Positions 38,190-59,489 of a stretch of DNA of 64,000 nt are shown here, piece by piece. Made by a program: the position numbers and the translations under genes. This DNA comes from Candidatus Kapaibacterium sp. Its GTDB lineage: Bacteria > Bacteroidota > Ignavibacteria > Kapaibacteriales > UBA2268. The DNA lies in the NCBI GenBank assembly GCA_963664875.1, contig OY761611.1, forward strand, positions 1,408,001-1,472,000. The letters are read 5' to 3'. The notes beneath the pieces are model-generated. The model had not been told where the DNA came from. It made no database searches and worked only from the letters and a program-made list of their open reading frames with translations. The stretch's first letter is position 1. Each line of letters starts with the position of its first letter.

Positions 38190-38266
38190 AATCTTTACAA
38201 AATATTATAACAAATACGTTTAAACAAATGTATATCTTAGACTCGACTAATAAAAGAGATATTTTG
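38126..38266. repeat. Direct repeat copy B (lysC upstream region + first 21 codons)
   Basis: 38176-38266 matches 43502-43592 at 90/91 bp; 38126-38175 matches 43452-43501 at 41/50. Confidence 0.95.
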
Positions 38267-38657
38267 ATATTTCGTATTCTTCAATGCCAAAGAAAAAGCG
38301 TCCATTTATTTTAGTTTGTTAAAGCATATTCTATCGTACTGAAGATAGAATAAAATAACACAACTGATTCAAACGTTAATCAAAGTATGTTAAATTGATT
38401 TGACATATTTTGTGTGACTATAAGGAAATAATAGTTTTTACAATTAATAATATATACATTAGGGAATACATAAAGTGTGTCTAACTAATTCTATAATACT
38501 CTAACAATATCTACCTAATAACTCTATACATTAGTATTGAGTTAAATTTCGTGTACAGATTGGGAAATTTTGAATAAACTTTTGGAGTTACAGGTTCTGA
38601 CTGTTCAGAGATATTTATTTGACTTCTCAGAAATCAATCCACATTCAAACTTTATAC

Positions 38658-43338: not shown

Positions 43339-43451
43339 TATGTAGTGTACAATAACCTCTTTCTCTAATATTGGTAGTGTAAATTAAACTCTGTCTGTTT
43401 TATTTCTATAGAAGAAAACTCTGGGATGTGATTGTTAGAGATTCAACTTAT

Positions 43452-43592
43452 TAAAAGCATCTGCATCTTTTACTGAAGCATCTCCAAATTTCAAAACTTT
43501 TAGACTAAGATTCATAATCTTTACAAAATATTATAACAAATACGTTTAAACAAATGTATATCTTAGACTTGACTAATAAAAGAGATATTTTG
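43452..43592. repeat. Direct repeat copy A with truncated lysC 5' remnant
   Basis: Minus strand from ATG 43515 reads MNLSLKVLKFGDASVKDADAFNKLNL*, versus LysC MNLSLNVLKFGGTSVKDAIAFRKL. Confidence 0.92.
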
Positions 43593-43698
43593 TAATTTTG
43601 TGAATGATTATAGACACGATCTTTGCTATTTCCCAAAAAAAAGCTGCCAAGCATAAAGCCCGGCAGCCTTTTTATAATGCAATTATTTATAAAAGCTA

Positions 43699-44820: not shown

Positions 44821-45074
44821 ATCTTCTTTCCACTTAAACAATAGATTAGCAAACTTAACCAATTATTTCTACGTAACGGCAATCAATTTCGAATAAAAAT
44901 TTACTTTTTGAGAATTGAACGCCTTTTCGATGATTATTAGGCATTATTCCACACTATTGAACTAATATTTGCACTAACGACGAAGCCACTTTTTTCTTTG
45001 TTCAAATAAATTATTGCTATGGACTTTTCTATGCTTATATTAGATATGTAAATTAAAATAATCAGGCGGTATAT

Positions 45075-48000
45075 ATGAAATCTTTCTATACATCTTTAAT
45101 TGCACTTTTCTTATTCCTTAGCAGCAATGCTATTTTTGCTCAGAACAGTCCTGACTTTTTCAAAACTATACCGGTCATTGATGAAAATACTCCGGAATGG
45201 GCAAAGCTAATGTATTCTGATAATCCTAATGTACCAAAAGTTGAGAATTTGTATAAAGAATACTACAAAACGCATAAGTTTGTAAAAAATGTGCATACTC
45301 AAAATCACAAACATTGGCTCCGCATAGTAGAACCTCTTTTAGATAGTGATGGCTATATAAAACAAAAAAGCAGAAAAGAAGAAAACTTAGACCAGCAGAG
45401 ACTAAAGGACAGATTTCGTGAAAATACATTAAGTAGTGTCGGTAAAGCCTCCGGTTGGAGGGCAATGGGGCCATTTGAAACATTTAAAAAAAATACAACT
45501 TTGCCTATTTCCTGGCATAAAAATATTTATGCTATTGACCAATCCCTGTCTAATCCCAATATTCTTATCTGCGGCACTGAAGCCGGAGGGGTTTACAAAT
45601 CTATAGATAAGGCTGCCAACTGGGTTCTTATTTCAAAAGGCGAAGTATTTGCCGGTGGTAATTCCGCTGTAAAAATTCACCCTACCAATCCTTATAATTT
45701 CCTTGTTGCTTCCAACAGAAGAATATACCAATCCTTAGATGGTGGAGCAACATGGCAGGAACGTCATTATACCAATGGCGAAGGAAATGAATTCCAATAC
45801 TCCCCTGCTGATTCGAAAACAATCTTCCATACTTCAACTTCGGGTTTATTCAAAACCACAGATGGAGGAGGCACTTGGGAAAAGATTTTTTCAGAAAAGT
45901 GCTGGGATATTGACTTCCACCCTACAAACAACAATACTGCATATCTACTAAAAGCAAACGAACAGGCAAAAAGAAATGAATTTTTCAGAAGTACAGACGG
46001 TGGCAGTACCTGGGCTATACAGGATAATGGATTTTATGAACCTTCAGATTGGAATAATGCATCTAATTCCGGTGGCAAAATCGCTGTAACTCCTGCCTCT
46101 CCGGATCTTGTTTATGTTTGTCTGATAGGTAATTCCAAAGCAGATGACGATGGCTGGATTGGTGTTTACCGTAGCACTGACAAAGGTGAAAATTGGGTAA
46201 ATCCCGCAGGTCAAAACGGTGGCCCGTATGGAGCGATAAACTCACAAACTTCTGTTTGGAATGTCGCTGCTTATGACGGTGGTTATCATCAGGGCTTTTT
46301 CAATTTTGACTTAGAAGCCAGCAGTATAGACCCTAATAAAATATGGGTTGCTACAATTCGCCTTTCCGAATCGACAGACGGAGGGAAAACATTTACTTCT
46401 ATTGGTGCGGCAAACTCACAGCGCCTGTCGGATATTCATGCAGACGTGCAGGATATTGAAGTAAACGGCAATGATATTTGGGTCGCGTCCGATGGTGGTG
46501 TAAATTATTCAAACGATGAACTAAACTCCCACGTAGCTCTCAATAAAGGCATATTAGCCGCAGATTTTTGGGGTTTTAATACAGGTTGGAACGAAGACAC
46601 TTTTACCGGAGGCAAATACCACGACGGCACAAGTGGCTGGTACGAAGGTTACGGAACCGGAAATGCTTATAATATCGGTGGAGTCGAAGAAGCATCAGGC
46701 TATGTACACCCTATAGAAAGTAGAAAAATGCTTTTTAGAACACACTACAATAGTTCGAATACCACTGTGCTCACTATACCCGAAAAATTTGGTGAAACAA
46801 TAAAAAACAATCCTACTTTTCCTATCAGACCAAATGAATCATATAATACTGCTGAACGTAGTGGCGTTTATTTCGATCCGAGATATTCCAATCATATTTA
46901 TGTAGGTCTCGAAAATAAAGTTTATAAATCAACTGACGGCGGTGTCAATTTTGAAATATTATATTCTTTTCCGGGTGATGACGGTTTAGTGTATGAAATG
47001 GAAATCGCACGCAGCAATCCGGATGTAATATATGCTATTTATAATCCTAAAGGTACATATTGGGATCCTTGTGAAGTATGGAAAACTACAGACGCAGGCA
47101 AAAGCTGGAAGAAAACAGAAACAAACCCTGCGGGCAATAACAAACGTCTGCGTATCACTATCAATCCTGAAGATGAAAATGACATCTGGACCTGCACTCC
47201 GAGAGGAGAAGACGACGGCAGAGTAAGCTCTTCAAGTGATGGTGGCAAAACTTGGATTAATAGAACAACAAGCGTTTTGGACAAAGAAAATTTAAGAGAT
47301 ATCCTTTATCAGGGCGGAACTGATGACATAGTTTATTTAGTATCTCTAAATGGCGTTTACTATTGGGATAAAACTTCTGCAAACTGGATAGATTATTCTC
47401 AAGACTTACCTCTGATTGCAAACTCTCTGCAGATAAACCCGTTTTACAGAGATTCAGAATTACGACTTGCTTCAAGCGGCAGAGGCGTATGGGCTAGAAA
47501 AATGGTTGATACATTATTCAATCCGATAGCTCAGCCTATTACATATAATGATCTAATCGACTGTGCAAGAGATACTGTAAAATTTGACTGTTATTCTATA
47601 CTCAATCATGATGGCGCTAAATGGCAGTGGTCATTTTCTCCTGAACCTTTATATGTAAGCTCAAGCTCTGCAAGAAACCCAAAAGTTGTTTTTGGTGCCG
47701 AAGGACCTTATGACGTTAGCCTAACTGTTAAAGACAAACAAGGCAGATCAAGTACAAAAACTATTGAAAACATGATTACTGTTCGCAACCTCTGCGAACC
47801 TGATGATTTGGCAGGAAATGCTCTTAAGCTTTCAAAAGACGGCGATTACTTCGTATCTCCTGAACTAAACTTATCGAATATAACTCATTTCACAGCCACT
47901 GCCTGGATAAAACCAAACGGAGAGCAGGAGGGCTTTGCGGGCATAGTATCTAATGGCGAATGGTGCGCTCATTGCGACACACCAATCGGACTTATATTTG

Positions 48001-49511
48001 ATTATTATGGTGAAAAGCTATATTACAGATGGCCAAACGGTTCAGGTTGGGCAGGTAATAGCGGCATGACAGTCCCTTTAGACAAATGGTCTTTTGTTGC
48101 AATAACTGTTACTCCTGATTCAGTAACTCTATATCTGAATAATCAGCAGTGGGTTTCCAAAGTTTCTCTCAATCCGGTTGATTTGCCTCTTTTATACATT
48201 GGTGCGGGGCATTATTCAAGCTATTTCAAAGGGAACATAGACGAAGTTACAATCTGGAATCGTGCTCTCTCTCAATCTGAAATCAGAAACCTGAAACATC
48301 TTACTAAAAAAGATATAGTTGCAGACGACCCCGGCTTAGTAGCTTATTACCAATTTAATACTTTCTCCGGAGATGCCACTTATGACAATGCTCGCGGCAA
48401 TCATGGCTGGCTTTCAGGTGGTGCATCATTAGAGAATTCGACTGCTCCTGTCGGTCCCGGGACAAGCGAACTAATCACAATAGACAAAGCCGGTACTTTT
48501 ACATCAGAAACAACCGGAGTTGAGATTGAATTTGCTGATTCTAATCCGCAGGGAGATATAGTTATATCAAGATTGAATGTATTGCCGGATAGTCTTCCTA
48601 ACACAAATCCTTCTATCAGAAATTATTGGATAATCAATAACTACGGTAGCGGAGATTTTGATGCTATAAAAAATATCAAATTTGCATCCTCTGCCGGTTA
48701 TCCAATTGGCACACCTGCAGATGCAAAGCTTTTTGTTAGAGACGAATATGAACATTTGAACAGCTGGGATGATTTATGTGGTGCGAGTAACTACGACGAT
48801 AATACTTACCACTATAGAGACTTTTGTGGCTTAACTAATACTCATCAATTCTTTATCCAGTCACGAAATCAGTCGGACATACATAAATGGTTTGCGGTGC
48901 AGAATATTGATACTACAATTTGCTCTTATGAAAGTATTTTTCTTGCCGGCGAGTGGCGAGACACACCGGGAGTCTATATCGACACCGTAAATATTTCTCC
49001 GGCTCTCGATAGCGTATATATTACTTCGCTCACAATCGCCGAGGTGGATACGACTGTAACACTCGAAGAAGCTACATTAACTGCACACGCTACAAAAGCA
49101 GAATACCAATGGATAGACTGCTCAACTATGCAGCCTATTCCGAGCGCAACTGCAAATACTTTCACCGCAGAAGCTGACGGAAACTATGCGGTTGAAGTTA
49201 TTCAATATGGCTGTGCAGATACTTCTTCCTGCTATGCGGTAAACGTATCGGGAGTGTTAGAGAGCAATTTTAATTATAAAATCAGTCTCTTCCCTAATCC
49301 GACTGATGGAAAAATCAGCATTGATTTAAGCATTCCATATCAAAATATCGAATGTAAAATTTACAATGCGACAGGACAACTAATAGACACCGAAGCATTC
49401 AGTAACATAAGCCAAATTAATTACACACTCGAAGGAGCTACGGGCTACTATCTCATAGAAATTAGCAGCTCGGATGGTAAGAAAGCTGTTTTGAAGGTGC
49501 TGAAGAAGTAA
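45075..49511 (+). CDS. Large T9SS-sorted protein: VPS10/BNR (Asp-box) propellers, PKD, LamG, CTD
   Basis: Signal peptide; many S/TxDGGxTW boxes; YDVSLTV PKD; FKGNIDEVTIWNRALS LamG; LFPNPT CTD. Confidence 0.88.
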   Translation: MKSFYTSLIALFLFLSSNAIFAQNSPDFFKTIPVIDENTPEWAKLMYSDNPNVPKVENLYKEYYKTHKFVKNVHTQNHKHWLRIVEPLLDSDGYIKQKSRKEENLDQQRLKDRFRENTLSSVGKASGWRAMGPFETFKKNTTLPISWHKNIYAIDQSLSNPNILICGTEAGGVYKSIDKAANWVLISKGEVFAGGNSAVKIHPTNPYNFLVASNRRIYQSLDGGATWQERHYTNGEGNEFQYSPADSKTIFHTSTSGLFKTTDGGGTWEKIFSEKCWDIDFHPTNNNTAYLLKANEQAKRNEFFRSTDGGSTWAIQDNGFYEPSDWNNASNSGGKIAVTPASPDLVYVCLIGNSKADDDGWIGVYRSTDKGENWVNPAGQNGGPYGAINSQTSVWNVAAYDGGYHQGFFNFDLEASSIDPNKIWVATIRLSESTDGGKTFTSIGAANSQRLSDIHADVQDIEVNGNDIWVASDGGVNYSNDELNSHVALNKGILAADFWGFNTGWNEDTFTGGKYHDGTSGWYEGYGTGNAYNIGGVEEASGYVHPIESRKMLFRTHYNSSNTTVLTIPEKFGETIKNNPTFPIRPNESYNTAERSGVYFDPRYSNHIYVGLENKVYKSTDGGVNFEILYSFPGDDGLVYEMEIARSNPDVIYAIYNPKGTYWDPCEVWKTTDAGKSWKKTETNPAGNNKRLRITINPEDENDIWTCTPRGEDDGRVSSSSDGGKTWINRTTSVLDKENLRDILYQGGTDDIVYLVSLNGVYYWDKTSANWIDYSQDLPLIANSLQINPFYRDSELRLASSGRGVWARKMVDTLFNPIAQPITYNDLIDCARDTVKFDCYSILNHDGAKWQWSFSPEPLYVSSSSARNPKVVFGAEGPYDVSLTVKDKQGRSSTKTIENMITVRNLCEPDDLAGNALKLSKDGDYFVSPELNLSNITHFTATAWIKPNGEQEGFAGIVSNGEWCAHCDTPIGLIFDYYGEKLYYRWPNGSGWAGNSGMTVPLDKWSFVAITVTPDSVTLYLNNQQWVSKVSLNPVDLPLLYIGAGHYSSYFKGNIDEVTIWNRALSQSEIRNLKHLTKKDIVADDPGLVAYYQFNTFSGDATYDNARGNHGWLSGGASLENSTAPVGPGTSELITIDKAGTFTSETTGVEIEFADSNPQGDIVISRLNVLPDSLPNTNPSIRNYWIINNYGSGDFDAIKNIKFASSAGYPIGTPADAKLFVRDEYEHLNSWDDLCGASNYDDNTYHYRDFCGLTNTHQFFIQSRNQSDIHKWFAVQNIDTTICSYESIFLAGEWRDTPGVYIDTVNISPALDSVYITSLTIAEVDTTVTLEEATLTAHATKAEYQWIDCSTMQPIPSATANTFTAEADGNYAVEVIQYGCADTSSCYAVNVSGVLESNFNYKISLFPNPTDGKISIDLSIPYQNIECKIYNATGQLIDTEAFSNISQINYTLEGATGYYLIEISSSDGKKAVLKVLKK

Positions 49512-49568
49512 AAATATATATTTTATAGCAAAGCTGCTTAGGAATTGTTTCCTGAGCAGCTTTGTTTT
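49434..49568 (+). repeat. Direct repeat copy 1 (last 26 codons of T9SS gene + terminator)
   Basis: Matches 51507-51644; coding part 68/78 nt; both carry the CAAAGCTGCTTAG...CTGAG(C/T)AGCTTTG hairpin. Confidence 0.92.
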
Positions 49569-49615
49569 TTAAGAATTTGGTTTCCCACCCATACACCACT
49601 TGCAGAACGTAAACT

Positions 49616-49843
49616 CTATTTTACAACAGAAATTCCGCTTAATGTCGGAATAACAGACAGTATGTGTTTGTCTCCTTTTCTGTCAACTTCAATTTTTATA
49701 ATTGGTGTTTCGCTATCTGAAGTCTCAATAGTTTCGATTTTGGGTTTAAAGCATCTATCTATTTTATATAACTTTTGTTTAGTTGATTCCATATAAAGGT
49801 AATTTAGAAATTCTTGGTGGAAGATCAGTTTAAGAAACTGCAT
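49616..49843 (-). CDS. Small hypothetical ORF or gene remnant
   Basis: 75-aa ORF directly after the 464-aa gene; no recognisable motif. Confidence 0.3.
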   Translation of the reverse strand: MQFLKLIFHQEFLNYLYMESTKQKLYKIDRCFKPKIETIETSDSETPIIKIEVDRKGDKHILSVIPTLSGISVVK

Positions 49844-49871
49844 CTGTTTATAAATGCTGTATCGTTATGCT

Positions 49872-51266
49872 CTACTCAATGCCTATCCCATGTTTCTCTA
49901 ACAGCTCTCGGATACTTTCAGACCAGGTGCCACTATCCCAAATGCTTTTTCTTTGTTGCATTATTTCTTTTAAGCTAATGTTTGTTTCTGAGTATTTAAA
50001 AGACAATAGAGTATTAGCAATATGAAAAATATCATATTTAGTAGTATTTACTCGCAATCTGCTCAGTAAATTATCAGTTGTCTTCGAAAGATGATTCGAC
50101 TCTATGCAGTCAAGAAATGGTTTAAGTTCAAGAAAATCAGCCGATAATACATTTTTATTACAAATTGTAATTAGCTTTTCAGCATCATGAATTGCGATAG
50201 TTTGAAGCATCAAAGGAAGGATTAATTCATCTGTTCCATAATTATAGTCAATTTCAATTAGATTGAATTTATCATCAGAAAGTAGCCCCTTCACAAATGA
50301 CTCAGATGCCTTTTCTGGATTCTGAGCAATAAATTTTTGAGTTATTGTGTAATCAATTGTCTTTTTTTCTTCCCAAATTTTTAAGATCATATCTTTGTAT
50401 AAAGGGCAGTAATTTTTGATTAGAGCTTTGTCTAAGTTTGTTATTTGTTCTAATGTGCAACTATGGTAAATTTCAGATAAGACATTTAAAGCGGCAGTAT
50501 CCTGGAAGCTAGACAGAGCTATAAAATAATCTAGAGATTTTTCTTCTGATTTGAAGCTTAATAAAAAATTCCAAAAACCTTCATCAGGAAAATATGATAT
50601 CGCTTCAAAAGATTCTTTTCCTTGTGATATAAAAAATGGAATATCTTCTTTATTTCTATACTTAGCTAAAGCTATCAGAGGATTAGTATTCCATTCTACT
50701 TCGGCAAGTTTTTTTATTCTGTCATAAGTTTTTGGATTTGCTTTGTTATTCTCCAATGCATATATCATGACAAATACATCTTTATCAGAATAAAGTAAGA
50801 GACTGTCCATTTTAGCAATTTGAGATTGAAAAAATATGCTGTCTTGATCTGTAATTTCAAATAAGTGCCCCTGAGATTGAATTCTAAAGTATAGTGTGCT
50901 TGCAATATGAAAATCACCACCTATACATACCCGTTGGTAATGTACCATCTCATCAGTTGCTAAAAATTCAGCAAAAATATCACTTAAAAATGGATATTTC
51001 CTATCTGCAAGAGCCCAGCCTGCGTATGCTTTAACCACGGAATTTGTATTTTTAAGTAATGTCTTTAGTTCTTCAATAGAAGCAGAATCTCTTAGTTTCT
51101 CATAATGTTTATATTGTTCAGAAGGTGACCCCATGTCTACAGTTTCATATTGCAATTCGTTACATTTTGCAATTGTATCTATTTGGTTTTGTATCTCAGG
51201 TCTAATTCTCTTCGCAAAAGCAGTCGAAGTATAGAGCATCAATAGGATTATCAAAATTGGCTTCAT
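49872..51266 (-). CDS. Secreted alpha-helical (HEAT-like) hypothetical protein, paralog of 55577-56977
   Basis: Signal peptide; shared blocks LRD.ASIEEL, VKAYA.WAL.D, LDKALI.NYC.LY.D.ILKIWEE.KTID. Confidence 0.8.
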   Translation of the reverse strand: MKPILIILLMLYTSTAFAKRIRPEIQNQIDTIAKCNELQYETVDMGSPSEQYKHYEKLRDSASIEELKTLLKNTNSVVKAYAGWALADRKYPFLSDIFAEFLATDEMVHYQRVCIGGDFHIASTLYFRIQSQGHLFEITDQDSIFFQSQIAKMDSLLLYSDKDVFVMIYALENNKANPKTYDRIKKLAEVEWNTNPLIALAKYRNKEDIPFFISQGKESFEAISYFPDEGFWNFLLSFKSEEKSLDYFIALSSFQDTAALNVLSEIYHSCTLEQITNLDKALIKNYCPLYKDMILKIWEEKKTIDYTITQKFIAQNPEKASESFVKGLLSDDKFNLIEIDYNYGTDELILPLMLQTIAIHDAEKLITICNKNVLSADFLELKPFLDCIESNHLSKTTDNLLSRLRVNTTKYDIFHIANTLLSFKYSETNISLKEIMQQRKSIWDSGTWSESIRELLEKHGIGIE

Positions 51267-51404
51267 ATATCAGTTATATATTTTCTAAATCACTTTTAAA
51301 TATAAAACAATATAACAAACTTGTAATAAATATGAAGACAAAATTCTATAAAGTTTGTTCAAATAATCCTATATTCCATAAACACTTTAAAAGAGGACGT
51401 TATC

Positions 51405-51584
51405 ATGGCTATGTATATAGACGGCTTCGCTTTCCCTATTCCTAAAGCTCATTTAGATGAATACAAAGAGGTGGTGGATAAAGTTGCCGAAATCTGGAAA
51501 GAATATGGCGCAACTGGCTACTATCTCATTGAAATTAGCAGTTCAAACGGCAAGAATGCTGTTTTGAAGGTGCTGAAGAAGTAA
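51405..51584 (+). pseudogene. 59-aa chimeric ORF: DUF1428-like N-terminus fused to T9SS CTD tail
   Basis: MAMYIDGFAFPIPKAHLDEYKEVVDKVAEIWKEYGA|TGYYLIEISSSNGKNAVLKVLKK*; AGAGGA SD; just under ORF-track length cutoff. Confidence 0.75.
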
Positions 51585-51659
51585 ATACATATATTTTTAA
51601 TAAGCAAAGCTGCTTAGTAATGGTTTCCTGAGTAGCTTTGTTTTATAAATCCTTAATCA

Positions 51660-52292
51660 TTACACCGCACCTTCACCTTTTATTACAGCAGGTATTGTTT
51701 TTAGTATAATCTCAAAATCAAGCGAAATTGAAAACCTTCGGATATACTCTATATCATATTTCATCATGTATTCTGCTTTTGTATTGTTTTTCCTGTCCTT
51801 GATTTGCCACAGACCTGTCAAACCGGGCTTAACTGATGAACGAATTTTACTAAATTGAGGCAATTTACTCAACATATCTGGAACTAAAGGGCGAGGACCT
51901 ACAAAACTCATGTCTCCTCTTAGAATATTGAAAAGCTGAGGCAACTCATCTAAACTTGATTTCCGTAAAAATGAACCCACTGGAGTAACACGTCTATCTT
52001 TAGAAGATTTATTCAGTTTGCTATCTGAATGATTGTATTCTAAAGTGCATTTGTCTATATACATAGATCTGAATTTATACATATAAAATCGCTTTTCACT
52101 TTTACCAATACGTTCTTGTAAAAACAGAGCAGATCCTTTTGAGGTCAACCTTATTGCAATAATGATTGCAATTATTAATGGTGATAAGATGAGTATCAAG
52201 AAGAGCGAGATGATAAAATCCAACACTCGTTTTAAAACAAATTGGGATTTCTTTGAGGATTGTATGTCTGTATTAATATCCAGTACCAGCAT
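51660..52292 (-). CDS. Bacterial sugar transferase (initiating phosphoglycosyl transferase)
   Basis: KRVLD, FLQERIG, KFRSM, SLDELPQLFNILRGDMSFVGPRP, KPGLTGLWQ. Confidence 0.93.
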   Translation of the reverse strand: MLVLDINTDIQSSKKSQFVLKRVLDFIISLFLILILSPLIIAIIIAIRLTSKGSALFLQERIGKSEKRFYMYKFRSMYIDKCTLEYNHSDSKLNKSSKDRRVTPVGSFLRKSSLDELPQLFNILRGDMSFVGPRPLVPDMLSKLPQFSKIRSSVKPGLTGLWQIKDRKNNTKAEYMMKYDIEYIRRFSISLDFEIILKTIPAVIKGEGAV

Positions 52293-52359
52293 ATACTCTT
52301 TCTCTCAATAATTCTGGATTATTGCTCAAATATATAAACACATCATAATAAAAAACGTC

Positions 52360-53352
52360 TCATATATTTCTAAATAACTTTTTTAATATTTCATTCAACT
52401 CTTCCGCTCGGTTTAAAATCATAAAGTGCCCACCTTTCAGAATTGTCACATTGCATTCTACAAAACACAATGGTAAAATTCTATCACTAGTGCCGTGTAT
52501 TTGAAAGAGATTTTGCGGATGAGTTCTGTTCTTCCACACAACTACTTTATCAATAGCCCATTTTAGAAATATTGGGTCGGTATCAATCAGGATTTGTTTA
52601 AGTAAGTATTTATCAAAGCTTGAACTGACTCCGAAAAACCAATTATTTATATAGTTCGCACTCTTCAAGAAACTTGTTGGTAAAAGTCTGTGAAGCCTCA
52701 AACGCCCAACTATACGGAAATAAAACGGAATTTCTCTTTTTGTCTTAGCGGAAGAAATTAGGATTACTTTTTCAGTTTCAATTTGTTTCGCTACTTCGAC
52801 AGCGACAATCCCACCAAAGGACAAGCCAATTAGTATAGGCTTTGGTGTTTGTATCTGAGCAAGAAGTCTTTGTGCATATTGTTGTAAAGTTTCATTCTTC
52901 AGTGGCTCGATCCATTTCACATGTATAACAGAATAGCCTGATAAATCAAGTTTTTGAAAAACTCTTTCATCAGCCCCAAGCCCACTAAATATATACACTT
53001 GCTTCATTACACACCCATACACCACTTGCAAGACGCCGTTAATCCCCTCAGTCAGCAATTCGATAAGCTCTTCATCCATGTATTCGTAGTCGTCGGGAAT
53101 ATGTAGAATTTCTACTTGTGGTAGCTCCAAGTGCAGGAACTGACTTGATAGTTTGGAGCGCTGATTGGATTCCATAACAAAAATCAGGTCAGCCCAATTT
53201 ACATCTTTCTCGGAAACTTTCCTCTCACTTTGCGGACTAAGCCCGGCAGAACGAATATAAAACCGACTATCATTCCTGAAAATCGATTCGGCAGTTCTGC
53301 TACGCTTTTTGTTGCGTCCGCAGATTACTAATATGTTTGGTTTTTGGTGCAT
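52360..53352 (-). CDS. LMW protein-tyrosine-phosphatase-like domain fused in frame to alpha/beta hydrolase
   Basis: CGRNKKRS (Cx5R), WADLIFVME, IPDDYEYMD; then MKQVYIFSGLGAD, GLSFGG, HGTSD, GGHF. Confidence 0.8.
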   Translation of the reverse strand: MHQKPNILVICGRNKKRSRTAESIFRNDSRFYIRSAGLSPQSERKVSEKDVNWADLIFVMESNQRSKLSSQFLHLELPQVEILHIPDDYEYMDEELIELLTEGINGVLQVVYGCVMKQVYIFSGLGADERVFQKLDLSGYSVIHVKWIEPLKNETLQQYAQRLLAQIQTPKPILIGLSFGGIVAVEVAKQIETEKVILISSAKTKREIPFYFRIVGRLRLHRLLPTSFLKSANYINNWFFGVSSSFDKYLLKQILIDTDPIFLKWAIDKVVVWKNRTHPQNLFQIHGTSDRILPLCFVECNVTILKGGHFMILNRAEELNEILKKLFRNI

Positions 53353-53364
53353 GGTGGCTATATT

Positions 53365-54594
53365 TTATTCCTCAATCCATCCAACAATACTTGAAAGCCA
53401 ATTAATCTCTATCTCAGTCCATTTTTGTGTTATGTTGTTCCACACCAAAACTCCTTTAGGATAGCCAAGATTGGAGCCCACATCACCATAAGCTACACTA
53501 AAGAATCCATCGGTTGTTTTAGAACCATAGTCGCACCAAACTCTTCCAATTTCTTTGTTTTGGTATTTAATAATTCTACCGTATTCGGGATTCATCTCGA
53601 CTTCAATTGAAAAATTAAAGCCGGAATTTTTAAACTTAAAGTACCTATCTTTTTTATCTTCTACTTTAATATCATAAGTTCCTTTGCTACAAACGAAGAT
53701 GATACTTCCATCAGAATCTGAATAAAAATAGGCATTAGAACAAGCTAAAGGAATCGAATCAATTTCCATGATAATTTCAGAGCTTCTTGATTTAATATTG
53801 AATTTGTGAATTATGGCAGTAGCAGTACCTTCATCTTCGAATAGTTCTAATCTATCTACTATTTTTGCTAATACAGTATCTCTACTTTTAGATTCTTTAA
53901 ACATTAAAGCCGGTTCTTCAATATTGGAATCTATAGACTCAAAAGATACATAAAGAAAATTTTCATTATCAAACCAGCAAAGAGGAACCTTCGGGAAAAC
54001 AGAAGAATATATCGACATTGGAGTACCAATTCCACAATCACTAATAATGATTGTATCTTGATTATAAGTCGAATCATAAAGTAGTAGCTCAGATGAAAAA
54101 GGGGTTCGTTCAAATTCCAATCCCCATTTATGATTTGGAGAGAGAATTCCTCTCAATTTTAAGCCCGCATAATCTTTGACTTTTTCATAATATTTCTTAT
54201 TTAGGTCATAAATATAGTATTCTGTATATTCCGGGGAGAAAAATTTATAGAAAATGAGACTATCTCCTCTGGTTTCATACAGACGACTCCGTTCTCTTTT
54301 CAGCATCAACTTGGTTTGAATATCAATAATGTGTCCTACCGGTGTGATAACATATCTATCTTTATAAAGCAAACTATTTTTAAGTTCATAATTAGTGATT
54401 CTGGAAGTTACATCAAGAATGGTATCTTTAGAAGTCAGTCTTCCATCAGCAAAGTGATATAGGACAAGGTTAACGTAATCTCCAGTACCTCTATCCTTTG
54501 TATCATATTCAGCCACAATTAAAGAGTTATGCCTATGCACGCTTGCAAAACACGTGCTAATTAAGACTAATCCTATTATTATGTATTTAAGCAT
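53365..54594 (-). CDS. Secreted hypothetical protein (beta-rich)
   Basis: 409-aa ORF, signal peptide, AGGAG SD. Confidence 0.75.
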   Translation of the reverse strand: MLKYIIIGLVLISTCFASVHRHNSLIVAEYDTKDRGTGDYVNLVLYHFADGRLTSKDTILDVTSRITNYELKNSLLYKDRYVITPVGHIIDIQTKLMLKRERSRLYETRGDSLIFYKFFSPEYTEYYIYDLNKKYYEKVKDYAGLKLRGILSPNHKWGLEFERTPFSSELLLYDSTYNQDTIIISDCGIGTPMSIYSSVFPKVPLCWFDNENFLYVSFESIDSNIEEPALMFKESKSRDTVLAKIVDRLELFEDEGTATAIIHKFNIKSRSSEIIMEIDSIPLACSNAYFYSDSDGSIIFVCSKGTYDIKVEDKKDRYFKFKNSGFNFSIEVEMNPEYGRIIKYQNKEIGRVWCDYGSKTTDGFFSVAYGDVGSNLGYPKGVLVWNNITQKWTEIEINWLSSIVGWIEE

Positions 54595-54625
54595 AGGTAT
54601 TTTGCTCCTAATTCCTATAGATTAA

Positions 54626-54658
54626 GCAGATTACAAGTATGTTTGGTTTTTGGATCAT
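54626..54658 (-). repeat. 11-codon 5' stub of the phosphatase gene
   Basis: MIQKPNILVIC versus MHQKPNILVIC (29/33 nt). Confidence 0.8.
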
Positions 54659-54743
54659 GGTTTTTAAATATTCTACAACACTTATAGCTTGTAGAAATTT
54701 TACACAGGATTTTAAATCAACGAAGGAACTTTGATTAATTTGA

Positions 54744-55355
54744 CTAATTTAGAGAGACAAAGCCAAAACCAAAGTCATCGTCTTTGTTTATCATCTCATT
54801 TTTTACTTTTTCGTACTCTTCTTTTGTGATATATCCTCCTTGGAATAATGCTGACAATCTTTCAAGTCCGTCTAATTTGGACATATTGTATTTCTTGTTA
54901 ATTTCAACACTCTCGAATTCTTCTTTCTTAGTATAAATCAGTTTTATAAAATCATTTACTGCATCTTCAGAAGGAATTTTTTTATAGAAAAAAAGCCAAT
55001 TAGGGTATTTAGCTAGTACATATATATTTTTGATTGAAATATAAAATTTAAAGGCAGTGAAGGACAAAAACGAGAGCACTAAAATAAAATTTCCAAGAAA
55101 TTTCTCGTCTGATGTATTAAAAGCAATCAGCAGAGTCCACAGAAAACACAAAACACACCCGAAAAGCCACCATTTTGAATATGTAATTTCTTTCTCCGGA
55201 TCATTCAAAATGGATTTAAACTGCAAAGCATACTCTTTCTCAGTAAAGAGCGTTTTGTATTCCACATGAACACCTTCGTGGTAGATGGTGCTTGTGATTT
55301 TGTGAAATAACCTCTTTTGCAGTATCTGATAATTTTCTTTCATATATTCTGACAT
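54744..55355 (-). CDS. Membrane protein with C-terminal SHOCT domain
   Basis: Two TM helices; LERLSALFQGGYITKEEYEKVK. Confidence 0.75.
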   Translation of the reverse strand: MSEYMKENYQILQKRLFHKITSTIYHEGVHVEYKTLFTEKEYALQFKSILNDPEKEITYSKWWLFGCVLCFLWTLLIAFNTSDEKFLGNFILVLSFLSFTAFKFYISIKNIYVLAKYPNWLFFYKKIPSEDAVNDFIKLIYTKKEEFESVEINKKYNMSKLDGLERLSALFQGGYITKEEYEKVKNEMINKDDDFGFGFVSLN

Positions 55356-55456
55356 TGTAAACAAAACACACTATAATATAAAAATATATTAGTGATAATT
55401 AAATATTTTTTTGCATCAAACAATAATTCTAAACTACATTTAAGTTCTATATCAAT

Positions 55457-55553
55457 TATAAAACCGACTATCATTCCTGAAAATCGATTCGGCTGTTCTG
55501 CTTCGTTTTTTGTTACGTCCGCAGATTACTAATATGTTTGGTTAGTTGTTCAT
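55457..55553 (-). pseudogene. 32-codon 5' stub of the phosphatase gene
   Basis: MNN*PNILVICGRNKKRSRTAESIFRNDSRFY; codons 5-32 differ from the intact gene at 4 synonymous sites. Confidence 0.9.
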
Positions 55554-55576
55554 AAAGCTAATCGCAGGATTCATCT

Positions 55577-56977
55577 TTATACCCCTTCAATTTCTATAGA
55601 ATATTCTTTGAAAAGATGTCGAAAACTTTCCGACCAATTTCCCCAATCCCAAAACTGTTGATTGTTTTTCAATATTTCTTGTAATTCTAAATTTGTCTCT
55701 TTGTTCTTGAAAGATAATAGAGTTTTAGAAAGATGAAATATTTCAATAGCCTGATTGTCTCCTCTTAATCTATAAAGCATATTTGGTATGCTTTGCGAGA
55801 ATTGTTTAGCGATAATAACTTCAATAAATGGTACTAAATGGACTGACTTTGCAGTTAAAACATTCTTACAGCATATCGAAAGAAGCAAGTCATCATTATG
55901 TTTACTTATTGTCTGAAGCATAAATAAAATCAACTCATCAATTCTATGATATTGATTAAACTGTAGAAGATTAATATCTTTATCTATCAATAGTCCTTTT
56001 GCAAAAGACTTGGAAGCTTTTTCAGGACATTCGACACTTAGTTTATTAGCAACTGAAAAGTCGATTGTTTTATGCTCTTCCCATATCTTTAATATAAGAT
56101 CCTGGTATAAAGAGCAATAATTTTGAATTAGAGCTTTGTCCAAATAGTTTATTTGAAGAGTGTCACATGTCAGATATATTTCAGTCATTACTTCCAAAGC
56201 AGATACATTTTTAAAACTAGAAACTGCTAAGAAATAATCATACGACCTCTCTGTCGATTTATAGCTTAAAATAAAATTCCAAAAAGCACTATCAGGGAAC
56301 ACTGATATAGCTGAAAAAGAATTTGTGCCATGATCCATCAAGAACTGAATATCATCTCTATCTTTATATTCAGCAAGAGCAACAAGTCCAGGAATATTAT
56401 TGGGTTCAGCGGCCAATTCTCTGATTCTATAATATGTTTTAGCATTACCTTTGTTATTTATTAAGGCTTCATATTTAAGACTAGTTTCTATATTAGAATA
56501 CAGAATAACACTATCCATCCTTTCAAGTTGGATTTGAAAATATAAACTGTCATTTTCCGAAGAATTCGAATTTATCTTTTGATTCAAAAGTCTATAATAC
56601 AATCCTGTTGAAATCTCACTTTCTGAAACACGACAACCATACCCAGTTATAACACTATATCTTTGCTTCAAGAAGGTAGAAAAAATATTACTCAAATCAG
56701 GATACCGATTATCCAATAAAGCCCAGCTGGCATAGGCCTTCACTGCAGAATTCTTATATTCTATAAGAGCGAGCAGCTCTTCAATAGATGCTTTATCTCT
56801 TAGTTCTTCAAATAATTTATAAATTTCAGTAGTTCTGCCGCTTGTTCCAACTTGCTGTGAATGCAAGACATTAAACTGTTCCAATTTTTGAACAATCGCT
56901 TTTATTTCAGGTCGGATTTCTTGACCTGATAATGTGTAGCTACAAAACAGCATAATTGTAATCAAAAGATTCTTCAT
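55577..56977 (-). CDS. Secreted alpha-helical (HEAT-like) hypothetical protein, paralog of 49872-51266
   Basis: Signal peptide; colinear similarity over the full length. Confidence 0.8.
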   Translation of the reverse strand: MKNLLITIMLFCSYTLSGQEIRPEIKAIVQKLEQFNVLHSQQVGTSGRTTEIYKLFEELRDKASIEELLALIEYKNSAVKAYASWALLDNRYPDLSNIFSTFLKQRYSVITGYGCRVSESEISTGLYYRLLNQKINSNSSENDSLYFQIQLERMDSVILYSNIETSLKYEALINNKGNAKTYYRIRELAAEPNNIPGLVALAEYKDRDDIQFLMDHGTNSFSAISVFPDSAFWNFILSYKSTERSYDYFLAVSSFKNVSALEVMTEIYLTCDTLQINYLDKALIQNYCSLYQDLILKIWEEHKTIDFSVANKLSVECPEKASKSFAKGLLIDKDINLLQFNQYHRIDELILFMLQTISKHNDDLLLSICCKNVLTAKSVHLVPFIEVIIAKQFSQSIPNMLYRLRGDNQAIEIFHLSKTLLSFKNKETNLELQEILKNNQQFWDWGNWSESFRHLFKEYSIEIEGV

Positions 56978-57244
56978 CTTCTATTCTTATTCTCTAAATA
57001 GCAATCTATCAATATAATAAAATCTCTCATTATTAAACTTATATATTCACTAAGAAACAGGAGCTAATTATCTTCGGTTGGGTGGTCTTCCAATCAGAGG
57101 CAATACGCGATAATGCCAACCCAAAAGTTCCTCCAAACATAAAAATCGCAGAATCAATTGCCCCCCTCTCTAACCAAGCAATTCGCCTAATATTTGATGC
57201 CGGCAGAATGATATACGACGGCTTGAAATCAATAGTGGAGTTGA

Positions 57245-57279
57245 AAAAGACAAGGCAACTTATGACTAAGCTGCCTTGT
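57245..57279 (-). terminator. Terminator after VIT/vWA gene
   Basis: Minus strand ACAAGGCAGCTTA...TAAGTTGCCTTGT then CTTTTT. Confidence 0.7.
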
Positions 57280-57329
57280 AATTGAATACATTGGAGTTGT
57301 ATAATTCAATTATAGATATTCTCTACAGT

Positions 57330-59489
57330 TTATTTTATTACTATAAACTTCTGAACATCAACAATCGAATCTTCTGAGATTAGATAAACAAGATACTCTC
57401 CGCTACTCAACTGCGAAATATTAGTAGAAATATCATTATTTATATCAGACTCGTTCAAATCCATTCTTAGTATTTCTGAACCATCCAAACTAACAATCCT
57501 CAACTGCAATTCTGCGGGATTAATATTTTCAGTAGATAAAATTCGAAGTCTTAAAATACCGCTTGTGACTGGATTTGATCCAACTATACTTATAATTCCG
57601 GCGTCGTTATTATCTGCTTCCATATCATCAAAGTATTCTGTATTATCACCTTTATCACCATTGCCGTTGCTTCCACTATTCATAGCAACTGAAGAGCTGT
57701 CAATAGCAACAAATGAAGTAAATTCAGTTACAAGGCCATATTTCAAACCTAACTCAATAATTTCCTCTTCAATAGATTTTTCATCGTCCTCATTGCTTGC
57801 TAAGCCATAATCAGAAAGTAGTTTAATTCTGGTTCTTGCCCATAAATACTTTATAGCAATGTTTTGATCAGCATTATTGAGGTAATCAGAAAATTTATAA
57901 GTTTCTGATATTTTCTCTTCAGCTAAATCACCACTTAATTCAATCGTGCCATTAGTCGCATCATCATATTTACCGTAAACAATCACAGGTCTGTCAGCGA
58001 ATACATCCGGGATATAAGGTGGCTCTATATCATAAGCATTTATATCTGAAAACATAGCTTTTAAATTAGTCATCGCCGGTCTTTCAATATAAACTTTAAA
58101 ATCATCAGCCATGGTTTGAGCATCAGAAAAATCAGTAGCTACAAATGATTCACCAATTCCGACATAAGCCATGCCATCTATAATTTCTCTATTTACCATT
58201 TCACCTATTCCAAATGCAAAGAAGTTCGCCTCTCCAAGATTGTTTCTTATCAGTTCGTAGGCTTGTTTTTCTACAGTAACATAACCATCTGTCAGAATAA
58301 CAAATATTCTTGAATAATCTTCTTCAATTTCCATAGCCAAAGCTTGTTGCAAAGCAGGTAGCAATTGTGTACCGCCACTTGCTTGTATATTATCAATCAT
58401 TTGTCCCGCCTTATTAATATTATCAGGTGTTACAGGCAGTGATGAAGGAGATAAAAAGCTAGAGCCAGCGGCGAAAAACAGAATATTAAATTTGTCTTTT
58501 GAATTTAAGTCATCTAATAAATTTAGAATAAGGTTTTTTGATATCTCAATAGGCGTACCAGACATAGAGCCAGATACATCCATAATAAAGACATATTCTC
58601 TCTTTGGAGTTTCATAATTAACCTCCGGCCTTGGTGGCTGAACTATAGACAGAAAGAATTTTTCATCATCATTTTCGCTTTCATAAAGCAATAGTCCGGT
58701 TTGAATTGTCGAACCACTTAGCTCGTAATCCACAATAAAATCAGCTCCCGGATGGGTTTGAATATAACCGGTAGCAATATTATCCGTAATATCAAAATTG
58801 ATTTCATGAGATTTGCAGTCAACACTCAGCGGCATACCGGCATATATTCTCATGTCAATATTTAACTCAGTATTTTTGACTGCAAGCGAATCCTCGATAG
58901 ATTGCTGCACCCAACTTTCACCATCTGTAGTGAAACGTGGCCCAACAATATTTGGAAATACAAACTGGTAAATCCCCTTTTCAGGAACAATTAACTCAGT
59001 ATATTTCATAAGTACACGTAATGATTCTCCAGCTCCAATATTTGCTACACTCATCTGAAAAACGTTTGGTCGATGTTGCTCTAATAAAGTTGCTGTATAT
59101 CCTTTGCTATTAGCAGAGTCGTATTCTGCTTGTGCTTCTTTTTTTTCCTTAATTACTGCATCTATCACTCGATCTCCAATAATCATCTGCATACCATAAA
59201 TTGCAGCATTATGTGACATCGGGAATACATAAGTAGCATCAAGTTCATTTTCGCCTGAATTTTCATAAACTTGCTCAATTTCAACATTCGCAATTACGCC
59301 ACTAATTGTTACATATACATTAGTCGAAATTAGAGGGAAAGCAACATCCGTCGAATCATCTGTAAATACGGCAAAGTATGGTGCTTCAGTTTTAGAAGCG
59401 TCTTCCGCAAATACTCCAATCGAAGAGTAAAGCATGATTGTTACAATAACAATCACAACTTTCATTAGAGAGGATTTGTCCAATTCCAT
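57330..59489 (-). CDS. VIT + von Willebrand A domain protein with T9SS-like CTD
   Basis: ATYVFP, A.LLEQ.RPNVF...VANI; MIDAS DVSGSM, GGT, LTDG; LVTEFTSFVAID; G.YLV...KFIV. Confidence 0.88.
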   Translation of the reverse strand: MELDKSSLMKVVIVIVTIMLYSSIGVFAEDASKTEAPYFAVFTDDSTDVAFPLISTNVYVTISGVIANVEIEQVYENSGENELDATYVFPMSHNAAIYGMQMIIGDRVIDAVIKEKKEAQAEYDSANSKGYTATLLEQHRPNVFQMSVANIGAGESLRVLMKYTELIVPEKGIYQFVFPNIVGPRFTTDGESWVQQSIEDSLAVKNTELNIDMRIYAGMPLSVDCKSHEINFDITDNIATGYIQTHPGADFIVDYELSGSTIQTGLLLYESENDDEKFFLSIVQPPRPEVNYETPKREYVFIMDVSGSMSGTPIEISKNLILNLLDDLNSKDKFNILFFAAGSSFLSPSSLPVTPDNINKAGQMIDNIQASGGTQLLPALQQALAMEIEEDYSRIFVILTDGYVTVEKQAYELIRNNLGEANFFAFGIGEMVNREIIDGMAYVGIGESFVATDFSDAQTMADDFKVYIERPAMTNLKAMFSDINAYDIEPPYIPDVFADRPVIVYGKYDDATNGTIELSGDLAEEKISETYKFSDYLNNADQNIAIKYLWARTRIKLLSDYGLASNEDDEKSIEEEIIELGLKYGLVTEFTSFVAIDSSSVAMNSGSNGNGDKGDNTEYFDDMEADNNDAGIISIVGSNPVTSGILRLRILSTENINPAELQLRIVSLDGSEILRMDLNESDINNDISTNISQLSSGEYLVYLISEDSIVDVQKFIVIK

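What the first reader, a model, noticed from the sequence alone, without database searches (positions are those of the whole stretch)
49434..57279. Candidate system: cassette-accretion hotspot punctuated by duplicated gene ends, no integrase
Seen (minus strand order): HEAT-like gene, phosphatase 5' stub, SHOCT gene, shorter phosphatase 5' stub, secreted gene, intact phosphatase-hydrolase, sugar transferase, duplicated terminator + T9SS tail, second HEAT-like gene, small ORF, phosphatase 3' stub, terminator, intact T9SS gene. Each stub is a terminus of one of two anchor genes and differs from the intact copy mostly at synonymous sites. The same layout recurs at lysC. No integrase, transposase or attC-like array is visible. 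Inference: the stubs are ends of alleles that diverged under selection in related strains. Repeated imports anchored by homology on one side and joined illegitimately on the other (as in homology-facilitated illegitimate recombination) built an integron-like array of mostly envelope genes. A dedicated trans-acting mechanism cannot be excluded.
Basis: partly seen in the sequence, partly recalled or inferred. Interest (0 to 1): 0.75.

Follow-up and report, generated by a model that had tools for sequence, protein, structure and literature searches.

The report
Recombination-scarred accessory-gene hotspot, no integrase
A stretch of variable envelope genes in a Kapaibacterium-like genome is littered with leftover copies of neighbouring gene ends, most likely scars of ordinary recombination that joined DNA by homology on one side only, not the product of a dedicated cassette machine.

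Summary
The repeats are real: a T9SS tail plus terminator (142 nt, 87%), two phosphatase (PTP) 5' stubs (97 and 47 nt) and a 19-nt PTP 3' stub. No recombinase was found among the 42 window ORFs scanned.

A DUF1428 gene is split by the 5.5-kb block 51507-57045. The "small ORF" is a DUF3781/LprI deletion chimera joined at about 13 nt of microhomology.

All four congeneric genomes carry PTP stubs, cut at other codons (+77, +144, +250). The HEAT1 and SHOCT units stand in reverse order in one of them. Two of them have lost PTP altogether.

Genome-wide, 13 of 60 direct repeat pairs but only 1 of 5 inverted pairs are gene-end/intergenic duplicates.

Best reading (about 0.58): an integrase-free hotspot shaped by insertions with one homologous and one illegitimate joint (HFIR or Campbell-type insertion-duplication), plus deletions. 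This mechanism has been proposed for rhs and T6SS immunity arrays.

The "foreign allele" claim holds for a T9SS tail stub and a hydrolase stub in relatives. It fails for all 3 testable PTP stubs, which match same-genome copies best. "Integron-like" is not supported. Interest is moderate to low.

The parts
45075..49511 (+). Large T9SS cargo gene (1478 aa; BNR/sortilin, PKD, LamG and Por_Secre_tail domains). It is the conserved left flank and one anchor gene.
   Evidence: Pfam. Orthologues of 72-81% protein identity in 4 of 4 congeners.
49434..49572 (+). Intact copy of the T9SS tail (last 26 codons) plus the terminator hairpin at 49527-49572.
   Evidence: Repeat D2/D5, BLAST, fold of -29.5 kcal/mol.
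49586..49604 (-). 19-nt PTP 3' stub. It encodes LQVVYG, the natural end of the stand-alone PTP gene.
   Evidence: Exact match to window PTP nt 323-341. Weak on statistics (E 0.001).
49616..49843 (-). Chimeric 75-aa ORF: the first codons of DUF3781 fused to the last 57 codons of an LprI-like gene. The deletion joint lies at about 13 nt of microhomology.
   Evidence: tblastn to G002 and G004. Pfam of the parent genes. Junction alignment.
49872..51266 (-). HEAT-like secreted protein 2 (464 aa), a paralogue of HEAT1.
   Evidence: 46% identical to HEAT1. HEAT_2 hit at E 0.027, below threshold. 89% nt identity to a G002 orthologue.
51405..51506 (+). DUF1428 5' fragment (about 34-40 codons), fused in frame to the T9SS tail copy.
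   Evidence: PF07237 positions 1-38, E 1e-9.
51507..51648 (+). T9SS tail copy (26 codons) plus terminator copy. It is the left end of block Z.
   Evidence: 86.6% over 142 nt. 7 synonymous and 2 non-synonymous codon changes. Fold of -21.7 kcal/mol.
51660..52292 (-). Small polyprenyl-phosphate sugar transferase (Bac_transf).
   Evidence: PF02397 at E 1e-64. TIGR03025-like C-terminal part.
52360..53352 (-). Intact PTP-like domain (aa 1-113) fused to an alpha/beta hydrolase. It is the second anchor gene.
   Evidence: LMWPc P-loop and Abhydrolase_6. Two separate ORFs in G004; PTP stands alone in G001.
53365..54594 (-). Secreted 409-aa protein. A PD40/TolB-like beta-propeller is only a lead.
   Evidence: No Pfam hit. 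Atlas score 0.90 to PD40 clusters. Orthologues in G001, G003 and G004.
54626..54672 (-). PTP 5' stub1 (14 nt upstream plus 11 codons), just downstream of the SHOCT gene.
   Evidence: The same unit in G003 carries a 48-codon stub.
54744..55364 (-). Membrane protein with a weak SHOCT hit (206 aa).
   Evidence: PF09851 at E 0.0022, below the cut-off. 84% protein identity to G003.
55457..55553 (-). PTP 5' stub2 (32 codons, stop at codon 4), just downstream of HEAT1.
   Evidence: The same unit in G003 carries an 84-codon stub.
55577..56977 (-). HEAT-like secreted protein 1 (466 aa).
   Evidence: 49 homologues, 2 of them with PF13646. Atlas HEAT clusters at 0.80-0.81, a lead only.
57052..57285 (+). 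DUF1428 3' fragment, convergent with the vWA gene. It marks the right border of block Z (51507 to about 57045).
   Evidence: PF07237 positions 47-91 with one stop. Translation and match to G002.
57250..57279 (-). Terminator-like hairpin between the vWA gene and the DUF1428 3' end.
57330..59489 (-). VIT/vWA T9SS protein, the right-hand neighbour. In G002 and G003 it follows a PTP stub directly.
   Evidence: Pfam. tblastn.
38126..38275 (-). Intact lysC 5' end (64 nt) plus 86 nt upstream. It is one copy of the lysC pair.
43373..43601 (-). lysC stub (43452-43601) abutting an 87-nt remnant of an IS256-family end (43373-43459).
   Evidence: No IS256 transposase in this genome.

Best explanation
The interval between the large T9SS gene and the SnoaL gene is an accessory-gene hotspot free of mobile elements. 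Its content differs in every species of the genus.

The stubs are scars of ordinary recombination. In this reading, a DNA segment from a conspecific or related genome (or a looped-out circle) carried part of an anchor gene plus foreign neighbour genes. It was joined by homology inside the anchor (the PTP 5' end or the T9SS gene 3' end). Its other end was joined illegitimately inside the resident anchor copy.

That leaves the pattern: intact anchor, then the new gene(s), then the old anchor terminus. Repetition gives HEAT1-stub-SHOCT-stub-secreted gene-PTP. Microhomology deletions and perhaps one two-ended insertion (block Z in DUF1428) add further scars.

Shown: the anatomy, the variable cut points, the recurrence across the genus, the absence of a recombinase, and one microhomology joint.
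Inferred: the one-sided homologous step, the source of the DNA, and the route of uptake. No dedicated machinery is assumed.
For: - Units (gene plus downstream PTP 5' segment) are conserved between species, but the stubs end at +33, +77, +97, +144 and +250 nt.
- HEAT1 and SHOCT units stand in opposite order in G003.
- PTP stubs or fragments occur in 5 of 5 genomes. G002 and G003 keep only stubs, with in-frame stops.
- There are independent T9SS tail stubs with different inserts in the window and in G001, and independent enolase 3' stubs in G000 and G004.
- The G001 tail stub is nearer the window's allele (83.3%) than its own (77.4%). The two G004 hydrolase copies are 41% identical in protein.
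- G002 and G004 share a 222-nt stretch at 97.3% identity beside the locus.
- 13 of 60 direct pairs but 1 of 5 inverted pairs are terminus/intergenic duplicates.
- The DUF3781|LprI joint sits in about 13 nt of microhomology.
- No recombinase in 42 of 42 scanned window ORFs. The nearest PF00589 hit is 111 kb away.
- Cassette GC is 29-33% against 36% for the genome.
- The same models are in print for other loci (passages read in PMC5361080, PMC2935791, PMC5635113).
Against: - 3 of 3 testable PTP stubs match a copy in the same genome best: 91.8%, 95.9% and 94.8%, against 83.5% for the same-context copy in the other species. Import from a distinct lineage is therefore not shown for them.
- The synonymous/non-synonymous test does not discriminate (27 vs 21 codons).
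- No conspecific strain with a different cassette set was found. Contigs of 4 runs from 2 studies are identical to the window.
- The T9SS tail copy in the window can be read as the end of a block with two illegitimate joints.
- The enolase 'insert' is the ancestral neighbour in G002.
- ComEC and DprA are present but also occur in non-competent control genomes. Ku is absent.
Confidence: 0.58

Rival explanations
1. Purely intragenomic history. Segmental or tandem duplications with illegitimate end points were followed by deletions. Gene conversion keeps the PTP 5' copies of one genome alike. No import from other strains is needed.
For: - PTP copies cluster by genome, not by context.
- G003's two stubs are 94-96% alike although G003 has no intact PTP.
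- Both units diverge from their G003 counterparts (85-87% nt) about as much as flanking core genes do (77-91%). So both were probably in the common ancestor.
- A tandem duplication from the T9SS tail (-78 nt) to DUF1428 codon 40 would create the observed DUF1428|tail joint.
- Tandem T9SS paralogues share 94-98% identical 3' ends.
Against: - Each unit holds a different gene, so many extra deletions are needed.
- The G001 tail stub and the G004 hydrolase stub are closer to another species' allele than to the local copy.
- 97.3% identity between G002 and G004 beside the locus points to exchange.
Confidence: 0.2
2. A dedicated cassette system. The PTP start region would be a recombination site used by a recombinase encoded elsewhere (integron-like), which inserts and reorders gene cassettes.
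For: - Homology to PTP begins within about 8 nt of the ATG next to at least 6 different upstream genes.
- All cassettes are co-oriented with PTP.
- G002 and G003 share the stub-vWA joint but differ upstream, exactly from the PTP start.
- The genome has 8 tyrosine recombinases.
Against: - The distal ends of the stubs are at five different positions.
- No shared motif or hairpin upstream of the cassettes.
- No recombinase within 111 kb.
- Other loci duplicate their own, unrelated gene ends, so no common site exists.
- Stubs decay, with in-frame stops.
Confidence: 0.07
3. Remains of classical mobile elements: integrative islands that carried a copy of the target gene end, or IS-mediated rearrangements, whose integrase or transposase was later deleted.
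For: - The lysC stub abuts an IS256-family end remnant. The same remnant sits 20 nt from the 438-aa gene stub.
- That second locus has an integrase 3 kb away.
- G001 has an IS256-type transposase in the hotspot.
Against: - The 9-kb main locus gave no multi-copy element match in any of the four congeners.
- Inserts are as small as one gene.
- This genome has no IS256 transposase.
- IS256-type elements, from recall, make 8-9-bp target duplications, not 47-150 nt.
Confidence: 0.08
4. Assembly artefact: a chimera of strains collapsed or expanded at repeats.
For: Short-read contigs break at the shared 37-68-nt words. A graph path that skips 53293-55456 is therefore formally possible.
Against: - Runs from two studies each give a 9746-nt contig across 43540-53285 and a 2224-nt contig across 53263-55486, with 0 differences and similar depth.
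- The genome is one 3.83-Mb contig.
- Four other species show the same kind of stubs.
Confidence: 0.01

Closest known systems
Homology-facilitated illegitimate recombination (Acinetobacter, S. pneumoniae, P. stutzeri). I saw it only as cited and described in PMC5361080 and PMC2884548; the primary papers are not held.
   Same: One homologous anchor plus one illegitimate joint. No recombinase. Foreign genes are added next to a conserved gene.
   Different: Here the illegitimate joint lies inside the anchor itself, so the anchor's end is duplicated. Whether the laboratory events gave such duplications I could not check. Natural competence of this organism is unknown.
Sequential displacement arrays of T6SS effector-immunity modules in Vibrio cholerae (Kirchberger 2017, PMC5361080; passages read).
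   Same: Arrays grow by repeated insertion next to a conserved gene. Old genes and an effector 3' end are pushed along. HFIR is proposed, an integron comparison is made, and no integrase is found.
   Different: No toxin or immunity gene was recognised here. The anchors are a PTP-like gene's 5' end and a T9SS cargo gene's 3' end. The stubs are anchor termini without a variable tip.
rhs C-terminal displacement through a circular intermediate (Jackson 2009, PMC2935791; passages read).
   Same: Strings of anchor fragments of variable length in direct orientation beside the intact gene. A Campbell-type single crossover of a circle explains displacement without deletion.
   Different: In rhs the core fragment precedes a displaced variable tip. 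Here whole unrelated genes are followed by a 5' stub. The copies are not identical within the locus (81-95%).
HGT hotspots free of mobile elements and flanked by recombining core genes (Oliveira 2017, PMC5635113; passages read).
   Same: Variable content between conserved flanks, no integrase or transposase, mostly accessory envelope genes.
   Different: That model uses double homologous crossovers, which leave no stubs. This locus preserves the scars of one-sided events.
Integrons.
   Same: Co-oriented cassettes added next to a fixed point, with older ones displaced.
   Different: No IntI, no attC-like sites, and variable joints. The repeated element is a decaying piece of a neighbouring gene.

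Membership tests
Integron | IntI-type tyrosine recombinase next to the array | tested here: not met
   0 of 42 scanned window ORFs has a recombinase domain. The nearest PF00589 match is 111 kb away.
Integron | attC-type imperfect inverted repeats bounding each cassette | tested here: not met
   The inverted-repeat search found none between cassettes. The boundaries are PTP stubs with five different end points. No dedicated attC model was run.
Integron | Cassettes co-oriented behind a common promoter | tested here: inconclusive
   All cassettes are on the minus strand with PTP. Promoter-like sites are not enriched: 43 found against 42.2 expected.
One-sided homologous insertion (HFIR or Campbell-type insertion-duplication) | One border of the insert lies within homology to the anchor gene | tested here: met
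   Each insert is followed by an intact or longer anchor copy in register with the stub.
One-sided homologous insertion (HFIR or Campbell-type insertion-duplication) | Other border illegitimate: variable position, microhomology or filler | tested here: inconclusive
   Variable positions are shown (+33, +77, +97, +144, +250). Microhomology of about 13 nt is shown only for the DUF3781|LprI deletion joint. The parent sequences of the stub joints are not available.
One-sided homologous insertion (HFIR or Campbell-type insertion-duplication) | Stub and intact copy derive from different alleles | tested here: inconclusive
   Met for the G001 T9SS tail stub and the G004 hydrolase stub. Not met for 3 of 3 PTP stubs.
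One-sided homologous insertion (HFIR or Campbell-type insertion-duplication) | A route for DNA uptake (natural competence) | tested here: inconclusive
   ComEC and DprA are present, but so are they in 10 of 14 control genomes, including non-competent ones.
Polymorphic-toxin displacement arrays (rhs, CDI, T6SS effector-immunity) | Anchor is a toxin gene with a conserved core and a variable tip, followed by immunity genes | tested here: not met
   No toxin or immunity family appears in the locus or in the relatives' loci.
Polymorphic-toxin displacement arrays (rhs, CDI, T6SS effector-immunity) | Direct strings of anchor fragments of variable length beside the intact gene | tested here: met
Integrative island with att duplication of a gene end | Integrase inside the insert; att repeats of fixed extent | tested here: not met
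   No integrase in any insert of the main locus. One other stub locus (1.342 Mb) does lie 3 kb from an integrase.
Diversity-generating retroelement (template/variable repeat pair at a gene's 3' end) | Reverse transcriptase nearby; mismatches confined to adenines of the template | tested here: not met
   No reverse transcriptase among the scanned ORFs. Mismatches in the T9SS tail pair are of all kinds.

The most novel reading that the evidence does not exclude
The PTP 5' segment (about -8 to +100-250 nt) would work as a portable homology linker. Units of the form [gene + linker] would be captured, excised as circles, re-inserted, reordered and homogenised by the cell's own RecA pathway across the genus. 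That would be a recombinase-free functional analogue of an integron. The same logic may operate at T9SS C-terminal-domain coding ends, of which this genome has at least 150.
Probability: 0.15. Interest if true: 0.6.

Novelty: new member of a known kind. Interest (0 to 1): 0.36.

Why it matters
Most hotspots of gene gain in bacteria lack mobile-element genes, and how DNA enters them is mostly inferred from statistics. This locus keeps legible scars: anchor-gene termini cut at different points, in five species. These scars show that insertions with only one homologous border, and not just clean double crossovers, add whole genes next to conserved genes. They also show that such events can turn alternative alleles into tandem paralogues. 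The locus gives a concrete, testable place to measure such events in a little-studied lineage. It does not point to a new molecular machine.

Tried and rejected
- A metagenome scan with a degenerate PTP 5' pattern gave 1 contig from a more distant relative, so no strain panel could be built.
- Laying contigs of 4 runs: no alternative joint at any stub and 0 differences in X1 and X2. Contigs drop rare variants, so this is not evidence of invariance.
- The synonymous/non-synonymous count over 10 stub pairs (239 codons; 27 synonymous, 21 non-synonymous, 5 of the latter behind an indel) cannot separate allele import from duplication plus decay.
- A DGR reading of the T9SS tail pair was rejected: mismatches are not adenine-specific and there is no reverse transcriptase.
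- An apparent stub array at 3.637-3.644 Mb is a repeated intergenic hairpin element in 4 copies, not gene ends.
- Rfam: 0 matches at E up to 0.1 in 36000-64000.
- PADLOC: 0 of 13 cassette proteins. NCBIfam: hits only for the sugar transferase, the hydrolase and a PD40 protein.
- Promoter-like sites are not above shuffles.
- No shared motif was seen by eye upstream of 20 cassette and anchor genes.
- The two primary HFIR papers are not held, so I could not check whether laboratory HFIR yields anchor duplications.
- A search for Kapaibacteria papers listed nothing on genome plasticity in the 12 titles shown of 135.

Full report
WHAT WAS CHECKED

The window is G000:C1:1408001-1472000 of a complete single-contig genome of 3.83 Mb with 36% GC. 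Record titles of its congeners read Candidatus Kapaibacterium or Chlorobiota MAGs.

- The last 26 codons of the 1478-aa T9SS cargo gene, with its terminator, recur 2.07 kb downstream (49434-49572 vs 51507-51648; 86.6% over 142 nt, E 5e-42). Both hairpins fold far better than shuffles.
- The first 97 nt of the phosphatase-hydrolase gene (PTP; 52360-53352, minus strand) recur at 55457-55553 (92-95%).
- Its first 33 nt plus 14 nt upstream recur at 54626-54672 (81-89%).
It encodes LQVVYG, which is exactly where the stand-alone PTP gene of G001 and G004 ends.
- The lysC pair is real (150 nt, 91%).
- None of 42 scanned window ORFs has a recombinase or transposase domain.

- The 59-aa ORF 51405-51584 is the N-terminal 38-40 residues of a DUF1428 protein fused to the T9SS tail copy.
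- The C-terminal part of DUF1428 lies at about 57052-57285, convergent with the vWA gene.
- So the whole block 51507 to about 57045 sits between the two halves of DUF1428. The block holds the tail copy, the terminator copy, the sugar transferase, PTP-hydrolase, the secreted gene, stub1, SHOCT, stub2 and HEAT1.
- In G003 and G004 an internally deleted DUF1428 pseudogene has its 5' and 3' parts side by side next to the vWA or TonB-like gene.
- The 'small ORF' 49616-49843 is a chimera of the first codons of DUF3781 (as in G002) and the last 57 codons of an LprI-like gene (as in G004). The joint lies in about 13 nt shared by both parents.

THE GENUS

A 9-kb query matched 11 of 41 related genomes, including all 4 congeners. 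The interval between the T9SS gene and the SnoaL gene differs in each. It holds, variously, a beta-lactamase-like gene, a TonB-like gene, TetR, DUF3781, MIP, GNAT, a TIR protein, a sigma/anti-sigma pair and an IS256-type transposase.

PTP fragments are in all five genomes:
- G001: intact 114-aa gene after the secreted gene.
- G004: secreted gene, 137-aa gene, SHOCT, PD40 gene, a 26-codon stub, a 294-aa gene, intact PTP, hydrolase. A PTP 3' stub (aa 63-113) follows beyond a 336-aa gene. A hydrolase 3' stub lies upstream of a second sugar transferase.
- G003: secreted gene, 137-aa gene, SHOCT, a 48-codon stub, HEAT1, an 84-codon stub, vWA.
- G002: an oxidoreductase 3' end, an 83-codon stub, vWA.

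G002 and G003 have no intact PTP anywhere, and their stubs carry stops.

The conserved units are [gene + spacer + PTP 5' part]. HEAT1 with its stub is 87% identical between the window and G003, and SHOCT with its stub 85%. The stubs end at +33 and +97 nt in the window, +77 in G004, and +144 and +250 in G003. The order of the two units is reversed in G003.

Homology to PTP always starts within about 8 nt of the ATG, next to at least six different upstream genes.

WHOSE ALLELES ARE THE STUBS?

- Over the first 97 nt, the window's stub2 is 91.8% identical to the window's intact gene and 83.5% to the same-context stub of G003.
- G003's two stubs are 95.9% alike.
- G004's stub is 94.8% identical to G004's intact gene over 77 nt.
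- So 3 of 3 testable PTP stubs are closest to a copy in their own genome. This fits recent events among conspecifics, or gene conversion. It does not fit import from a distinct lineage.
- By contrast, G001's 217-nt T9SS tail stub is 77.4% identical to G001's own tail but 83.3% to the window's.
- G004's hydrolase stub is 41% identical in protein to G004's intact hydrolase against 50% to the window's.
- A 222-nt stretch beside the locus is 97.3% identical between G002 and G004.
- Codon changes over ten stub pairs were 27 synonymous and 21 non-synonymous in 239 codons, with 5 of the latter behind an indel. That is about what duplication plus decay would also give.

THE WHOLE GENOME

A word-11 self-BLAST was run over crude ORF calls of my own. 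I kept low-copy pairs of 30-450 nt, at least 78% identical and 300-15000 nt apart.
- 13 of 60 direct pairs have one copy at a gene terminus and the other intergenic. Only 1 of 5 inverted pairs does.
- All seven pairs read by eye are clean terminus copies. They involve enolase, an ADP-forming acetyl-CoA synthetase-like gene, ribonucleotide reductase, lysC and others.
- The inserts hold small secreted or membrane proteins and no recombinase.
- Stubs mark synteny breaks. lysC, its 'insert' and the neighbouring NMO gene lie apart in all four relatives. asd is not next to enolase in any relative. The enolase 'insert' is the ancestral neighbour in G002. G004 has its own, differently cut enolase stub.
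- Not all cases are alike. The lysC stub and the 438-aa gene stub each abut a remnant of an IS256-family end that is multi-copy in G004. The latter locus has an integrase 3 kb away.

ASSEMBLY

Six runs from two studies hold the locus. In two of the four laid, one from each study, single contigs span 43540-53285 and 53263-55486 without a difference. Contigs break only at the shared repeat words. No alternative joint was seen, but contigs hide rare variants.

MECHANISM

Every stub has the same topology: intact anchor, insert, then the old anchor terminus from the joint to the gene's end, in direct orientation.

This is what a single homologous exchange plus one illegitimate joint inside the resident anchor produces. 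The incoming DNA could be linear (HFIR) or a looped-out circle that integrates Campbell-fashion. The final structure cannot tell the two apart.

Both models are in print:
- for T6SS immunity arrays (PMC5361080, passages read);
- for rhs tips (PMC2935791, passages read);
- integrase-free hotspots are common (PMC5635113, passages read).

The T9SS tail copy in the window has two readings. It may be the end of block Z inserted into DUF1428 with two illegitimate joints. Or it may come from two successive events anchored in the T9SS gene. About 25 DUF1428 codons are missing between the halves, which fits either.

ComEC and DprA are present and Ku is absent. None of this is decisive.

FUNCTION OF THE CASSETTES

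- The HEAT label is weak: E 0.027 in one paralogue, 2 of 49 homologues with PF13646, and atlas scores of 0.80-0.81.
- The 409-aa protein is only a PD40-like lead.
- The SHOCT hit is below threshold.
- All have signal peptides or membrane helices by eye.
- None hit defence or immunity models.
- PTP, hydrolase and the sugar transferase look like the start of an exopolysaccharide module.

VERDICT

The claim of foreign-allele origin is only partly borne out, and the integron analogy is not. It is a new, well-preserved example of a known kind of process.

LIMITS

- Only five species-level genomes were available, and no conspecific strains.
- The gene calls are crude.
- There was no control genome for the census.
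- The primary HFIR papers were not seen.

Noticed in passing
G000 genome-wide, e.g. 2249444-2249754 vs 2251210-2251520; 1655881-1660836; 1823012-1827742; 2439465-2445949: Tandem T9SS cargo paralogues share 94-98% identical 3' ends of about 200-330 nt while their bodies are diverged (one pair is 40% identical in protein overall). 7 of 12 such 3'/3' pairs fall in Por_Secre_tail matches. The genome has at least 150 such domains. This suggests gene conversion, or accretion anchored on the coding end of the C-terminal sorting domain.
   Followed up: partly
window 43373-43459; G000 2466612-2466705, 1343495-1343565, 123688-123718: Solo remnants of the end of an IS256-family element. It is multi-copy, with a 404-aa Mutator-type transposase, in G004, and it sits at contig ends in G002. 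This genome has no such transposase. Two remnants sit right beside gene-end stubs.
   Followed up: partly
window 38619-43338: The 5.2-kb 'insert' at lysC is a conserved cluster: an AraC regulator, small proteins, an SPFH/Band 7 protein, a baeRF_family3 protein and DUF2959. G001 and G004 each hold it in two copies elsewhere. It is a possible conflict or stress module.
   Followed up: no
window 52360-53352 vs L021:7846-8828: PTP and the alpha/beta hydrolase are one fused ORF here. They are two ORFs in different frames in G004, and PTP stands alone in G001. G002 and G003 have lost PTP entirely.
   Followed up: partly
L020:1-222 vs G004:C2 about 206968-207189: The 3' end of an oxidoreductase gene is 97.3% identical between two species that are otherwise about 70-85% alike. 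This looks like recent inter-species exchange next to the hotspot.
   Followed up: no
window 60421-60461 and 60583-60639: More of the same in relatives. G003 has a 1.36-kb insertion between the SnoaL gene and the 111-aa gene, flanked by two copies of the 41 nt at the SnoaL 3' end. G001 has a 57-nt, 96% identical stub of the 111-aa gene about 190 nt upstream of the intact gene.
   Followed up: partly
window 53938-54656 (run X5): One 1809-nt contig of run X5 fits the window only over 53938-54656 and ends inside PTP stub1. It could be an alternative arrangement in that sample. X5 also shows G>A at 57299.
   Followed up: no
window 10200-15508 vs 15577-20894: Two tandem rRNA operon copies (99.7% over 5.3 kb), each with tRNA-Ile and tRNA-Ala.
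   Followed up: no
G000 3637049-3643969: Four copies of an intergenic element about 70-90 nt long. It is a GC-rich hairpin followed by a conserved TTTGTGTATATTTGCGATGACAC-like tail, and it lies between consecutive genes. Its function is unknown.
   Followed up: no
L023:3285-4133: G001's version of the hotspot carries a CAP12/Pycsar-type TIR effector-like gene next to a pentapeptide-repeat protein.
   Followed up: no
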